A stretch of DNA of 8,704 bases, taken from IMG/VR virus record IMGVR_UViG_2713896905_000005, positions 1 to 8,704 of that record; one strand, given 5' to 3'. The notes under the pieces were generated by a model. That model was not told the DNA's origin, ran no database searches, and worked only from the letters and a program-made list of their open reading frames with translations. The stretch is from a virus (Duplodnaviria; Heunggongvirae; Uroviricota; Caudoviricetes). The translations under genes were made by a program, and so were the position numbers. Each line of letters begins with the position of its first letter. The first letter of the stretch is position 1. Shown here piece after piece: positions 6,436 through 8,704 of the stretch.

Positions 6436-6531
6436 TCAAATAAGTGGTTTGCTGCCTAATTTCATTTTCTGGCGACCAACACAAGTCACACCCATTTCAC
6501 TGCGTGGCTTGCGGTAGTAAATTAGGTTTGT
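6436..6531 (-). pseudogene. Remnant of an N antiterminator 3' end (…IYYRKPRSEMGVTCVGRQKMKLGSKPLI*), without the 5' part
   Basis: Minus-strand frame between the tL1-like terminator and orf28 encodes a peptide very like the lambda N C-terminus as recalled (…GITCSGRQKIKGKSIPLI) and the intact N here (…IYYKDSNPLGNKIHAVQKIKLYSKLP). The frame is closed by TGA at 6532-6534, so no N-terminal part or start is present. Confidence 0.5.
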
Positions 6532-6536
6532 TCAGA

Positions 6537-6561
6537 CAATAAAAAACCCACCGAAGTGGGC
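6537..6561 (-). terminator. Rho-independent terminator (tL1-like), minus strand
   Basis: Hairpin CCCAC-CGAA-GTGGG (6547-6560) immediately after the ORF stop at 6561-6563, followed on the minus strand by UUUUUUAUUG (6546-6537). Confidence 0.65.
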
Positions 6562-6899
6562 TATGACCATTTTTTATTTGGATTTCGTTGGTGAGCGTGA
6601 TTAACAACTCTGTGCATTACATCCTCATATTTTTCATCTTCAATTTTTTCGACATCGCGAGGAAATGGTGTTGCTAATGCTTTGTCAACTTTGTCCATTG
6701 GGTCTTCATTAATCTTATATTCAGGGCCATCATCTATAGCATTAAATCCAGGTGTTACACCGTTTTTTAATGCATATGCTATCCTTTTTTCCCATCTCGC
6801 TATTCTCCTCCTGTCTCGAGATGTAAGACCTCTATCAGATACTTTTCTGTTTTGTCCGCGGTCAGGATTAACATAAATAGTCTTTTTCACCATAAGCAT
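6561..6899 (-). CDS. Hypothetical protein, about 112 aa, basic N-terminal half (RDRRRIARWEKR) and acidic C-terminal half, located between N and the tL1-like terminator
   Basis: Open frame begins 2 nt after the N stop. The track start is TTG at 6905; first ATG is at 6899 (MLMVKK…), second at 6893. No strong SD, so likely coupled to N translation. Stop abuts the terminator hairpin. Confidence 0.55.
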   Translation of the reverse strand: MLMVKKTIYVNPDRGQNRKVSDRGLTSRDRRRIARWEKRIAYALKNGVTPGFNAIDDGPEYKINEDPMDKVDKALATPFPRDVEKIEDEKYEDVMHRVVNHAHQRNPNKKWS

Positions 6900-6901
6900 A
6901 C

Positions 6902-7207
6902 TCAATAAGCACCGTACGGTAGTTTACTGTACAATTTTATTTTTTGGACTGCATGTATTTTGTTTCCTAATGGGTTTGAATCTTTGTAATAAATACTTCT
7001 ATTTTTTCGAACGACTTCTTCTTTCTTCTTGCAGCAAAGGCATCCTAGCGATGCTGCTTTGTCTGCTCTGACGCAACCAGAGAGCTTTAGCGCAATTTTT
7101 CGCGCCAGTGCTTCATTACTGCGTCGCTCGGCAATAAGTTCTGCTCTGCGAGCTTTGTAGCGGCTTTTTGCCGTACCTTTGGATTCTTTCCAGACAATGG
7201 TTACCAT
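6902..7207 (-). CDS. N: N-type transcription antiterminator, 101 aa, with a phage-21-type arginine-rich motif
   Basis: ATG at 7207 with AAGGAG about 8 nt upstream. N-terminus MVTIVWKESKGTAKSRYKARRAELIAERR contains the phi21 N ARM peptide as recalled. Located just downstream of nutL and PL. The track's 10-codon extension (ATG 7237) has no SD. Confidence 0.8.
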   Translation of the reverse strand: MVTIVWKESKGTAKSRYKARRAELIAERRSNEALARKIALKLSGCVRADKAASLGCLCCKKKEEVVRKNRSIYYKDSNPLGNKIHAVQKIKLYSKLPYGAY

Positions 7208-7317
7208 GATGGTCTCCTTTAAGTGGCTTTGGCGCATGACGCGTCGAGGTGCTTATCTTCTCGATCGCTGTCTTGCAGCTGCAATTCGCGCCATCCCCAA
7301 AACCACTCAAGTTCTGG

Positions 7318-7358
7318 TCTCAACGGTTAGGTTGAGAGTCCGTCGATGTTAAAGAGCC
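7318..7358 (-). promoter_or_regulatory. nutL: boxA (GGCTCTTTAACA) plus boxB hairpin (UCUCAAC-CUAACC-GUUGAGA)
   Basis: Minus strand reads GGCTCTTTAACA (7358-7347), a 9-nt spacer, then a perfect 7-bp stem with a 6-nt loop (7337-7318). Sits between the PL candidate and N. Confidence 0.6.
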
Positions 7359-7403
7359 TGCCAATCTGTTCCGTTTGGCTTCCAGCGTCCTGCTGATGGC
7401 TTA

Positions 7404-7457
7404 AATTTAAGACTTCTTAATTTATTGGTCAAGTGCATTTTTGAAGAAAACTTAATT
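7404..7457 (-). promoter_or_regulatory. PL promoter candidate with OL operators of P22 type
   Basis: Minus strand: -35 TTGACC (7432-7427), 17-bp spacer, -10 TAAATT (7409-7404). Two 18-bp sites fit the P22 operator pattern ANTNAAG-N4-CTTNANT: ATTTAAGACTTCTTAATT (7405-7422) and, with one mismatch, TTTGAAGAAAACTTAATT (7440-7457). Confidence 0.5.
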
Positions 7458-7501
7458 TTATGGGCGTGAATTTAGTTTGTCTTTGATTTTTAACGGGAAA
7501 T

Positions 7502-7521
7502 AAAAAAGGGGCGAAAGCCCC
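7502..7521 (-). terminator. Rho-independent terminator directly after the repressor gene, minus strand
   Basis: GGGGC-GAAA-GCCCC hairpin (7508-7521) abutting the cI stop (7522-7524), followed on the minus strand by UUUUUUA (7507-7501). Confidence 0.6.
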
Positions 7522-8172
7522 TTAAGGAAGGTTTGCTAGCTTGGCATCAACGACAACGCCAATGATTTTACAGTTCCCATTGATTTCAATCATTGGGTAT
7601 TGTGGATTGAGTGGTTTCAGGAATTTTCTACCGGCATCAATAACTAACTTTTTGAATGTCGCCTCGTTTTCTCCTTCAAGTTTGGCGACTACCAACTTTC
7701 CATTACGTGGTTCGACTTCTGGGTCGACGAGAATAATCATCCCCTCAGGAATACTCAGTCCTGCCGGGGCAGTCATTGAATCGCCTTTAACGTCGAGCCA
7801 AAAAGAGTCTTCAGAACAATCTACCGTTGTGTCGTACCAGTTATCTATTGCACGCCTATGATATGGCTCTACAGCTTCCATCCAACATCCTGCGCTTACC
7901 CAACTAATTAGAGGATACGAACCTCTTGGATCATGCCTGCTGTGATAGGCAATGTTTGAAAGACTATCCTCTCCTTTCAACAGGTAATCAGGGGAGCACT
8001 GCAAAGCCTTGGCTAAGGCCAATAGGTTTTCGCCATTGGGCTCAGTTTCAGATCGCTCCCATTGGGAAATAGCAACATTAGACACGCCAACCATCTTGCC
8101 AAGGGCAGCCTGCCTAATCTTGAGTTCTTTTCTGCGAGCGCGAATACGCTCACCCATCAGTTGTGTATTCAT
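7522..8172 (-). CDS. cI: Prophage repressor, P22 c2 type, 216 aa (N-terminal HTH domain, C-terminal LexA-like self-cleavage domain)
   Basis: Near-identical over its length to the P22 c2 repressor as recalled (MNTQLMGERIRARRK…QAALGKMVGVSNVAISQWERSE… and …GDSM…KLANLP). Divergent from cro across an operator region. Confidence 0.93.
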   Translation of the reverse strand: MNTQLMGERIRARRKELKIRQAALGKMVGVSNVAISQWERSETEPNGENLLALAKALQCSPDYLLKGEDSLSNIAYHSRHDPRGSYPLISWVSAGCWMEAVEPYHRRAIDNWYDTTVDCSEDSFWLDVKGDSMTAPAGLSIPEGMIILVDPEVEPRNGKLVVAKLEGENEATFKKLVIDAGRKFLKPLNPQYPMIEINGNCKIIGVVVDAKLANLP

Positions 8173-8238
8173 AGTTAAGACATCTTAAATAAACTTGACT
8201 TAAGATTCCTTTGGTGGATAATTTAAGTGTTCTTTAAT
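8173..8238. promoter_or_regulatory. OR operator region with PR (rightward) and presumably PRM (leftward)
   Basis: Three sites fitting ANTNAAG-N4-CTTNANT: AGTTAAGACATCTTAAAT (8173-8190), ACTTAAGATTCCTTTGGT (8198-8215, imperfect right half), ATTTAAGTGTTCTTTAAT (8221-8238). PR: -35 TTGACT (8195-8200), 17-bp spacer, -10 ATAATT (8218-8223), upstream of cro. PRM hexamers were not individually located. Confidence 0.7.
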
Positions 8239-8252
8239 TTCGGAGCGAGTCT

Positions 8253-8438
8253 ATGTACAAAAAAGATGTTATTGACCACTTCGGAACCCAGCGTGCTGTT
8301 GCTAAAGCACTAGGCATTAGCGATGCAGCAGTCTCTCAGTGGAAAGAAGTTATCCCAGAGAAAGACGCCTATCGATTGGAAATCGTTACAGCTGGCGCCC
8401 TGAAGTATCAAGAAAGTGCTTACCGCCAAGCGGCATAA
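8253..8438 (+). CDS. cro: Cro repressor, P22 type, 61 aa
   Basis: ATG at 8253 with GGAG 7-8 nt upstream. Sequence MYKKDVIDHFGTQRAVAKALGISDAAVSQWKE… matches P22 Cro as recalled; divergent from cI. Confidence 0.9.
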   Translation: MYKKDVIDHFGTQRAVAKALGISDAAVSQWKEVIPEKDAYRLEIVTAGALKYQESAYRQAA

Positions 8439-8445
8439 GCAAATT

Positions 8446-8487
8446 GCTCTTTAACAGTTCTGGCCTTTCACCTCTAACCGGGTGAGC
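8446..8487 (+). promoter_or_regulatory. nutR: boxA (TGCTCTTTAACA) plus boxB-like hairpin with a CUAACC loop
   Basis: GCTCTTTAACA (8447-8457) is identical to the nutL boxA core. Ten nt downstream a stem (8468-8474 with 8481-8487, including G-U pairs) encloses loop CUAACC (8475-8480), identical to the nutL boxB loop. Lies between cro and the cII-like gene. Confidence 0.55.
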
Positions 8488-8553
8488 AAACATCAGCGGC
8501 AAATCCATTGGGTGTGCCGCTATAACTCAATATCAATATAGGAAAATTAACAA

Positions 8554-8704
8554 ATGGCACAAGCAAGCTACAGCAAGCCAACACAGCGAGAAATTGATCG
8601 CGCAGAAACAGATTTACTCATCAACCTGTCAACGCTTACACAGCGCGGTCTGGCAAAGATGATTGGCTGTCATGAATCGAAGATAAGCAGAACGGACTGG
8701 AGAT
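8554..8704 (+). CDS. cII/c1-like transcriptional activator, N-terminal 50 codons (partial, continues beyond the window)
   Basis: ATG at 8554 downstream of cro and nutR. HTH-like segment …LSTLTQRGLAKMIGCHESKISRTDW resembles the lambda CII DNA-binding region (…TEKTAEAVGVDKSQISRWKRDW, recalled). Confidence 0.65.
   Translation, partial: MAQASYSKPTQREIDRAETDLLINLSTLTQRGLAKMIGCHESKISRTDWR

What the first reader, a model, noticed from the sequence alone, without database searches (positions are those of the whole stretch)
7318..8487. Hybrid immunity region: P22-type repressor, Cro and operators combined with phi21-type N and nut sites
The repressor, Cro and the operator pattern are P22-like, whereas the N protein carries the phi21 arginine-rich motif. 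Both nut sites share an identical boxA core (GCTCTTTAACA) and a CUAACC boxB loop, unlike the pentaloop boxB of lambda and P22. N and its two RNA targets therefore agree with each other but are of a different lineage from the repressor module.
Basis: partly seen in the sequence, partly recalled or inferred. Interest (0 to 1): 0.45.

Follow-up and report, generated by a model that had tools for sequence, protein, structure and literature searches.

The report
Ordinary phage 21 immunity region (imm21)
This stretch is the well-known immunity and early-control region of the classic E. coli phage 21, the same one carried by lambda imm21 and by BL21(DE3), so the P22-like repressor next to a phi21-type N protein is phage 21's normal make-up and not a new hybrid.

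Summary
The region holds a P22-like repressor, Cro and operators, an N protein with the phi21 arginine-rich motif, and two nut sites that share boxA GCTCTTTAACA and a CUAACC boxB loop. The "hybrid" reading does not hold. Window ~7060-8704 is essentially identical to the phage 21 reference genome (OL657228), lambda imm21 and prophage DE3. Repressor is 216/216, Cro 61/61 and the first 50 aa of cII 50/50 identical to phage 21. Both nut sites match the nutL and nutR annotated in that record base for base. N residues 8-29 are 22/22 identical to the phi21 N peptide in PDB 1NYB. Phage 21's own repressor and Cro are simply P22-like (93.5% and 98.4% to P22). P22 DNA homology runs only from boxA-L to boxA-R. 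E. coli phages N7 and CUS-3 pair the same cassette with a third N-motif/boxB type, which is classic lambdoid module shuffling. At least 80% of window 6500-8704 is present in 178 of 5426 complete E. coli genomes. The only local junction relative to phage 21 lies inside N, outside the finding's coordinates. The C-terminal third of N belongs to a module that continues into an HK022-type nun gene, as in phages mEp235, mEpX1 and Kapi1. Verdict: real, functional-looking, already known, low interest.

The parts
6902..7207 (-). Antiterminator gene N (101 aa plus stop). Residues 1-55 are identical to phage 21 N, and this stretch includes the arginine-rich motif GTAKSRYKARRAELIAERR. The C-terminal third diverges from phage 21 and matches the N of mEp235, mEpX1 and Kapi1.
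   Evidence: 76/98 identical to phi21 N, with residues 1-55 identical; 22/22 identical to PDB 1NYB; 98-99% to N of mEpX1, mEp235 and Kapi1. The RBS AAGGAG upstream of the 7207 start corresponds to the RBS annotated in the phage 21 record.
7225..7310 (-). Long hairpin predicted in the N leader RNA, between nutL and the N ribosome-binding site.
   Evidence: the 203-nt leader folds at -71 kcal/mol, z -4.57, and 0 of 200 shuffles fold as well. The DNA is identical in phage 21.
7318..7337 (-). nutL boxB: UCUCAAC-CUAACC-GUUGAGA, a 7-bp stem with a hexaloop.
   Evidence: z -5.8. It is identical to the stem_loop annotated 'nutL' in OL657228.
7347..7357 (-). nutL boxA, GCTCTTTAACA.
   Evidence: It is annotated boxA-L in the phage 21 record. 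P22, N7 and CUS-3 homology ends just beyond it, on the boxB side.
7404..7432 (-). PL promoter (-35 TTGACC, -10 TAAATT). The transcript starts near 7397.
   Evidence: The pL start annotated in phage 21 maps to window 7397 (offset +5484).
7405..7486 (.). Operators OL1 (7405-7422), OL2 (7440-7457) and OL3 (7469-7486).
   Evidence: Positions come from the phage 21 annotation. All three are identical to phage 21 and differ from P22 by 0, 1 and 4 bases. TTAAGN4CTTAA matches are listed.
7506..7523 (-). Intrinsic terminator immediately after the repressor gene.
   Evidence: (-12.1 kcal/mol, z -2.7). It is annotated as a terminator in phage 21.
7522..8172 (-). Prophage repressor (phage 21 CI, P22 c2 type): an HTH DNA-binding domain plus an S24 self-cleaving domain.
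   Evidence: HTH_3 6.4e-17, Peptidase_S24 1.2e-30. (216/216 to the phage 21 ORF, 202/216 to P22 c2)..
8173..8238 (.). Operators OR3 (8173-8190), OR2 (8198-8215) and OR1 (8221-8238), named by their position relative to PR.
   Evidence: identical to phage 21; 1, 2 and 0 differences from P22.
8195..8222 (+). PR promoter (-35 TTGACT, 16-nt spacer, -10 GATAAT).
   Evidence: 10 of 12 consensus matches.
8253..8438 (+). cro (61 aa, P22_Cro family).
   Evidence: 5.7e-28. (61/61 to phage 21, 60/61 to P22). (PDB 1RZS).
8446..8456 (+). nutR boxA, GCTCTTTAACA.
   Evidence: It is annotated boxA-R in phage 21.
8468..8485 (+). nutR boxB: UCACCU-CUAACC-GGGUGA, a 6-bp stem with a hexaloop.
   Evidence: It is identical to the stem_loop annotated 'nutR' in phage 21. 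The CUAACC hexaloop is the phi21 boxB loop of PDB 1NYB (PMC12550061).
8554..8704 (+). 5' part of cII, which runs off the window. The CII-binding repeat TTGC-N6-TTGC of pRE lies at 8563-8576 (-).
   Evidence: Phage_CII 1.7e-17. (50/50 to phage 21 cII; 27% to P22 c1). (pRE and CII site annotation).
6561..6899 (-). nun, an HK022-type transcription termination factor, lying directly downstream of N. It is a neighbour in the pL operon, not part of imm21 proper.
   Evidence: 108/109 identical to HK022 Nun, PDB 6ALG_N. (annotated Nun in mEp235)..

Best explanation
The locus is the canonical immunity and early-regulation region of coliphage 21 (imm21), sitting in a lambdoid phage or prophage of the mEp235/Kapi1 kind.

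Inferred mechanism, from established lambda, P22 and phage 21 biology:
- The CI repressor (P22 c2 type) binds three operators at OL and three at OR. This shuts the divergent promoters PL and PR and maintains lysogeny.
- Its S24 domain lets RecA trigger self-cleavage, which induces the prophage.
- Cro binds the same operators to commit the phage to lytic growth.
- PL and PR transcripts carry nutL and nutR. The arginine-rich N-terminus of N binds the CUAACC hexaloop boxB hairpin. boxA recruits host NusB/NusE, and together with NusA and NusG the polymerase becomes termination-resistant and reads into the delayed-early genes.

The P22-like character of the repressor, Cro and operators is native to phage 21. 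P22 and phage 21 share one homologous immunity cassette, bounded on both sides by boxA. N specificity (the RNA-binding motif plus both boxB sites) is an independently exchangeable module.
For: - Megablast: phage 21 (OL657228), lambda imm21 and DE3 match window 6985-8704 at 98.7%. mEp235 and Kapi1 match 6850-8704 at 99.4-99.5%.
- Proteins: repressor 216/216, Cro 61/61 and cII 50/50 identical to phage 21. N residues 1-55 are identical.
- nutL, nutR and both boxA sequences equal the features annotated in the phage 21 record. DNA identity to phage 21 is 97-100% across 7060-8704, apart from alignment-gap columns.
- The N motif is 22/22 identical to the phi21 N peptide of PDB 1NYB. CUAACC is the published phi21 boxB hexaloop (PMC12550061).
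- Both boxB sequences fold as predicted.
- P22 homology (83.6%) is confined to window 7343-8453, that is boxA-L to boxA-R.
- N7 and CUS-3 have the same cassette (repressor 97.2%, Cro 96.7%) and the same boxA, but a different N motif and a different boxB.
- All reading frames are intact, and promoters and terminators sit where expected.
- At least 80% of window 6500-8704 is found in 178 of 5426 complete E. coli genomes.
Against: Nothing contradicts the identification. There are three caveats.
- N diverges from phage 21 N after residue 55 (77.6% identity overall), so strictly the N gene is a variant of phage 21's.
- Function is inferred from identity to characterised phages and was not tested here.
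- The statement that P22 and phage 21 share immunity specificity rests on my memory of the older literature and on the identical recognition-helix region and OL1/OR1 operators. I found no paper on it in the held library.
Confidence: 0.95

Rival explanations
1. One reading: a novel recombinant in which a P22-lineage repressor/Cro/operator module has recently been joined to a phi21-lineage N/nut module.
For: P22 homology covers only boxA-L to boxA-R. N and boxB are phi21-type and unlike P22's.
Against: Phage 21 itself, isolated in the 1950s, has the identical arrangement with 100% identical repressor, Cro, operators and nut sites. The repressor is 100% phage 21 against 93.5% P22, so it is not a P22-derived allele. 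No junction relative to phage 21 lies within 7318-8487.
Confidence: 0.03
2. The region is uniformly P22-like, so that gp24 and the P22 nut sites match.
For: c2, cro and the operators are very similar to P22.
Against: N against gp24 gives only 26/76 identities in a gapped alignment. P22 boxB loops are GACAA pentaloops in different stems. cII against P22 c1 is 27% identical.
Confidence: 0.01
3. The region is a decayed remnant in a cryptic prophage and no longer functions as an immunity and antitermination switch.
For: The window's origin is unknown. No single phage or complete E. coli record matches at least 80% of the whole 8.7-kb window.
Against: All genes (N, nun, the repressor, cro, the start of cII) are intact. 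The control sites are identical to those of viable phages 21, mEp235 and Kapi1.
Confidence: 0.07

Closest known systems
Coliphage 21 immunity region (imm21), as in phage 21 OL657228, lambda imm21 OM418625 and prophage DE3 of BL21(DE3)
   Same: The repressor, Cro, the first 50 aa of cII, six operators, PL/PR, the terminator after the repressor gene, and boxA and boxB of both nutL and nutR are all identical. N residues 1-55 are identical.
   Different: The C-terminal ~45 residues of N diverge (77.6% overall). Left of N the window carries nun, which the annotated phage 21 stretch does not show: ral follows N there.
Phages mEp235, mEpX1 and Kapi1 (E. coli lambdoid and P22-like phages)
   Same: mEp235 and Kapi1 match window 6850-8704 at 99.4-99.5%. 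That stretch holds the end of nun, N, nutL, the repressor, cro, nutR and cII. All three have the same full-length N variant (98-99%). mEp235 has Nun annotated directly after N.
   Different: The early-left region beyond nun differs. The window has ral and a 98-aa ORF where mEp235 has a 207-aa hypothetical gene. mEp235 covers only 50% of the whole window.
Salmonella phage P22 immC region (c2-cro) with gene 24 and the P22 nut sites
   Same: The immunity cassette is homologous: c2 93.5%, Cro 98.4%, OL1 and OR1 identical, DNA 83.6% from boxA-L to boxA-R. boxA is nearly the same.
   Different: The N-type protein differs: gp24 carries a different arginine-rich motif. The boxB loops are GACAA pentaloops, and c1 is different (27%).
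E. coli P22-like phages CUS-3 and N7
   Same: They have the same immunity cassette (repressor 97.2%, Cro 96.7%), the same boxA, and a phi21-like central and C-terminal part of N.
   Different: They carry a third N arginine-rich motif (DDNARNRRRARRQAQREQ) and a third boxB (CCCGCCGAAAUGCGGG) at both nut sites.
Lambda N/nut antitermination system
   Same: [quoted passage not shown]
   Different: The boxB loop differs (hexaloop against the GAAAA pentaloop) and so does the N motif, so specificity differs. The Pfam N_peptide match is below threshold (18.1 bits against a cut-off of 27.9).

Membership tests
Phage 21 immunity region (imm21) | CI repressor of phage 21 | tested here: met
   216/216 identical to the phage 21 ORF. 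The GenBank CDS is annotated from an internal Met, but the full 216-codon ORF is intact in that record.
Phage 21 immunity region (imm21) | Phage 21 Cro and the OL/OR operator sets | tested here: met
   Cro is 61/61 identical. All six 18-bp operators have 0 differences from phage 21.
Phage 21 immunity region (imm21) | Phage 21 nutL and nutR (boxA plus the CUAACC-hexaloop boxB) | tested here: met
   They are identical to the annotated nutL, nutR, boxA-L and boxA-R of OL657228. The hairpins fold as expected. The loop matches the published phi21 boxB.
Phage 21 immunity region (imm21) | Phage 21 N protein (RNA-binding motif and the rest of the protein) | tested here: inconclusive
   Residues 1-55 are identical and the motif is 22/22 to PDB 1NYB. 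Residues 56-101 diverge, giving 77.6% overall. This C-terminal variant is shared with mEp235, mEpX1 and Kapi1.
Phage 21 immunity region (imm21) | Immunity phenotype: a lysogen is immune to phage 21 and lambda imm21 | not testable with these tools
   This needs plating tests. It is predicted from the 100% identity of the repressor and operators.
P22 immC plus gene 24 early-control region | c2-type repressor, P22-type Cro and P22-type operators | tested here: met
   93.5% and 98.4% identity. Pfam P22_Cro 5.7e-28. PDB P22 c2 and P22 Cro are the top hits. OL1 and OR1 are identical.
P22 immC plus gene 24 early-control region | gp24 antiterminator with its GACAA-pentaloop boxB sites | tested here: not met
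   26/76 identities in a gapped alignment. The boxB stems and loops differ.
Lambdoid N/nut processive antitermination | boxA followed within about 10 nt by a boxB hairpin, once downstream of PL and once downstream of cro | tested here: met
   boxA to boxB spacers are 9 nt (nutL) and 11 nt (nutR). Positions relative to PL, PR and cro are as expected.
Lambdoid N/nut processive antitermination | [quoted passage not shown] | tested here: met
   The motif is identical to the peptide solved in complex with phi21 boxB (PDB 1NYB).
Lambdoid N/nut processive antitermination | Nus-factor-dependent read-through of terminators | not testable with these tools
   This requires reporter or in vitro transcription assays.
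LexA/CI-type S24 self-cleaving repressors | An N-terminal HTH domain plus a C-terminal S24 peptidase domain with an Ala-Gly site and a Ser/Lys dyad | tested here: met
   HTH_3 6.4e-17 and Peptidase_S24 1.2e-30. The sequence shows SAG-CW and GDSM motifs (translation).

The most novel reading that the evidence does not exclude
The most novel reading left open concerns the neighbourhood, not the finding itself.

The N gene here is a natural chimera. Its phi21-type RNA-binding and central part (aa 1-55) is joined to a C-terminal part that belongs to the same DNA module as an HK022-type nun gene. HK022 retains just that 3' N fragment, unannotated, upstream of its nun. This would suggest that the N-less, put-RNA-dependent arrangement of HK022 arose from an N-nun ancestor like this one, by replacement of nutL and the 5' part of N.

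It would also mean that one pL operon encodes two arginine-rich boxB readers of different specificity. One would antiterminate the phage's own transcripts and the other would abort those of lambda.

The N-nun pair is already annotated in mEp235, so at most the evolutionary inference might be undescribed.
Probability: 0.15. Interest if true: 0.3.

Novelty: already known. Interest (0 to 1): 0.07.

Why it matters
It matters little as a discovery. This is one of the oldest characterised lambdoid immunity regions. It is present in lambda imm21, in every BL21(DE3) strain, and in about 3% of complete E. coli genomes.

Its value is as a clean textbook example. The immunity cassette (operators, repressor, cro) and N specificity (the RNA-binding motif plus both boxB hairpins) assort independently among lambdoid phages. 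The exchange points sit right at the conserved boxA. N and its two RNA targets always travel as a matched set: three different sets are seen here on one cassette.

Tried and rejected
- Rfam gathering scan of the whole window gave no family. nut sites are not a curated Rfam family, so this says nothing either way.
- Pfam N_peptide hit N only below threshold (18.1 against 27.9 bits). NCBIfam has no model that hits N or Nun. Identification therefore rests on identity to phage 21 and to PDB 1NYB and 6ALG.
- I looked for a citable statement that P22 and phage 21 share immunity specificity. Two searches found nothing in the held library, so that point is marked as recollection plus sequence inference.
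- Cilley & Williamson 2003 (PMC1370434) is not held. The CUAACC hexaloop was confirmed instead from PMC12550061.
- The half-site pattern TTAAGN4CTTAA at up to 2 mismatches is only modestly enriched window-wide (10 against 4.3 expected; 2 of 200 shuffles reach 10). The operator call therefore rests on position and on identity to the phage 21 and P22 operators, not on that count.
- A three-sequence RNAalifold of the N leader (window, P22, N7) was misaligned for P22 and gave no usable covariation.
- I considered an N start at ATG 7237 (the longer ORF) and rejected it. The start at 7207 is preceded by AAGGAG and corresponds to the phage 21 and mEp235 annotations.

Full report
**What is in the sequence**

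Around the finding the window encodes the following, read leftward on the minus strand from a PL promoter (-35 at 7432-7427, -10 at 7409-7404):
- nutL, made of boxA GCTCTTTAACA (7357-7347) and boxB UCUCAAC-CUAACC-GUUGAGA (7337-7318);
- a structured leader;
- the antiterminator gene N (7207-6902);
- a nun gene, starting two bases after the N stop codon (6899-6561), followed by an intrinsic terminator.

Right of PL lie three operators (7405-7486) and a strong terminator (7523-7506). Next comes a 216-aa repressor gene on the minus strand (8172-7522), with HTH_3 and Peptidase_S24 domains. Then come three more operators (8173-8238) interleaved with PR (8195-8222). After these come cro (8253-8438; Pfam P22_Cro, 5.7e-28) and nutR. 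nutR consists of boxA GCTCTTTAACA (8446-8456) and boxB UCACCU-CUAACC-GGGUGA (8468-8485). The start of cII (8554 onward) follows.

**Checking the observation**

- The 11-mer boxA occurs exactly twice. With one mismatch allowed there are 3 hits against 0.18 expected, and no shuffle reached that number.
- Both boxB sequences fold into the stated hairpins with a CUAACC loop.
- The repressor is 93.5% and Cro 98.4% identical to their P22 counterparts. Their best solved-structure matches are the P22 c2 N-terminal domain and P22 Cro.
- OL1 and OR1 are base-for-base identical to P22's operators.
- N residues 8-29 are 22/22 identical to the phi21 N peptide in PDB 1NYB. The literature gives CUAACC as the phi21 boxB hexaloop in that structure (PMC12550061).
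- P22 gp24 aligns only poorly (26/76). P22's own nut sites, read from the P22 genome, have GACAA pentaloops in unrelated stems.

**What it really is**

A megablast of window 6850-8704 against phage genomes finds phage 21 itself (OL657228), lambda imm21, lambda h434 imm21 and prophage DE3 at 98.7% over window 6985-8704. It also finds mEp235 and Kapi1 at 99.4-99.5% over the whole query.

Comparison with phage 21 gives these results:
- Repressor 216/216, Cro 61/61 and the first 50 aa of cII 50/50 identical. N is identical through residue 55.
- Both nut regions are identical to the features annotated nutL, boxA-L, boxA-R and nutR in the phage 21 record.
- All six operators are identical to phage 21.
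- A 40-column sliding comparison shows 97-100% identity to phage 21 from about 7060 to the window end. The exceptions are windows that contain alignment-gap columns.

The region is therefore uniformly phage-21. The "P22-type" repressor, Cro and operators are what phage 21 has always had. Because lambda imm21 matches over the same span and carries the same N, everything in the finding lies inside the classical imm21 substitution. The region is also common. At least 80% of window 6500-8704 is present in 178 of 5426 complete E. coli genomes.

P22 DNA homology (83.6%) covers only window 7343-8453, running from boxA-L to boxA-R and stopping on both sides just beyond boxA. The E. coli P22-like phages N7 and CUS-3 carry the same cassette (repressor 97.2%, Cro 96.7%) and the same boxA sequences. 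Immediately beyond boxA, on the boxB side, they switch at both nut sites to a third boxB (CCCGCCGAAAUGCGGG). Their N has a third arginine-rich motif, fused to a phi21-like central and C-terminal part.

N specificity, meaning the motif plus both boxB hairpins, therefore behaves as a coordinated module that exchanges independently of the immunity cassette, with boxA as the junction. This is the well-established modular mosaicism of lambdoid phages. The CUS-3 record even annotates a "boundary sequence" in this interval. It is not a new observation.

**Mechanism (inferred from identity to characterised systems; not tested here)**

- The repressor bound at OL1-3 and OR1-3 shuts PL and PR and maintains lysogeny.
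- RecA-stimulated self-cleavage through the S24 domain induces the prophage. The Ala-Gly and GDSM motifs are visible in the translation.
- Cro competes at the same operators.
- On PL and PR transcripts, N's arginine-rich helix binds the boxB hexaloop. boxA recruits NusB/NusE, and the modified polymerase reads through the downstream terminators.
- The N-terminal DNA-binding domain differs from P22 c2 at only 3 of 68 positions, all of them outside the GVSNVAISQWERSE stretch, which is identical between the two. Together with the identical OL1 and OR1, this predicts shared or overlapping immunity with P22. I recall this from the older genetics literature but could not find it in the held papers.

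**The one real junction nearby**

Relative to phage 21, N diverges from about residue 56. The last ~38 codons, together with nun, are 96.8% identical to HK022 DNA (window 7019-6544). HK022 thus retains an unannotated 3' fragment of an N gene upstream of nun (hits H66-H68).

The Nun protein here is 108/109 identical to HK022 Nun (PDB 6ALG). mEp235, mEpX1 and Kapi1 share the same full-length N variant, and mEp235 has nun annotated directly after N. This lies outside the finding's coordinates, and in mEp235 both genes are already annotated.

**Verdict**

The feature is real and functional-looking but already known, so interest is low.

Noticed in passing
window 6561-6899 (-): There is an HK022-type nun gene (transcription termination factor that excludes lambda). 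It is 108/109 identical to PDB 6ALG chain N. It starts 2 nt after the N stop codon and is followed by an intrinsic terminator at 6562-6545. N (phi21 boxB specificity) and Nun (lambda boxB specificity, from the literature) therefore sit in one pL operon, as already annotated in mEp235.
   Followed up: partly
window 6902-7042 (-); L004 (HK022) 1500-1614: The N gene is itself mosaic: aa 1-55 equal phage 21 N and the C-terminal third diverges. HK022 homology (96.8%) begins inside N at window 7019 and runs through nun. HK022 and HK75 thus keep an unannotated 3' N fragment upstream of nun, which hints that HK022's N-less arrangement derives from an N-nun ancestor.
   Followed up: partly
window 7208-7357 (-): The N leader RNA is predicted to form a long hairpin between nutL and the N ribosome-binding site (z -4.57). 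In the minimum-energy fold boxA-L (GGCUCUUUAA) pairs with the Shine-Dalgarno region (UUAAAGGAGACC). This recalls the RNase III-sensitive N leader of lambda. A three-sequence covariation test was inconclusive.
   Followed up: partly
L001 (phage 21, OL657228) 2038-2754: The phage 21 GenBank record annotates CI as 190 aa, starting at an internal Met. The full 216-codon ORF, colinear with P22 c2, is intact there. The record also labels two of the three right operators 'OR2'. These look like annotation slips, not biology.
   Followed up: yes
L005 (phage N7) 797-1110 and 2028-2100; L006 (CUS-3) 797-1317 and 2235-2300: The same P22/21-type immunity cassette and the same boxA are joined to a third N arginine-rich motif (DDNARNRRRARRQAQREQ) and a third boxB (CCCGCCGAAAUGCGGG) at both nut sites. 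The rest of N is phi21-like. The junctions lie within a few bases beyond boxA, on the boxB side.
   Followed up: partly
window 1-6500: The early-left region holds ral (6157-6357), a Rad52-type annealase (4315-5022), SSB (3808-4314) and many small ORFs. It is a different mosaic from any single record: no phage or complete E. coli genome covers at least 80% of the whole window (best: mEp235 50% among phages, 62% among E. coli genomes). Where mEp235 has a 207-aa hypothetical gene between cIII and nun, the window has ral plus a 98-aa ORF (5821-6117) with no Pfam match.
   Followed up: no
window 8563-8576 (-): A TTGC-N6-TTGC CII-binding repeat (TTGCTGTAGCTTGC) lies inside the start of cII. It marks the pRE establishment promoter, as annotated in phage 21.
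   Followed up: yes
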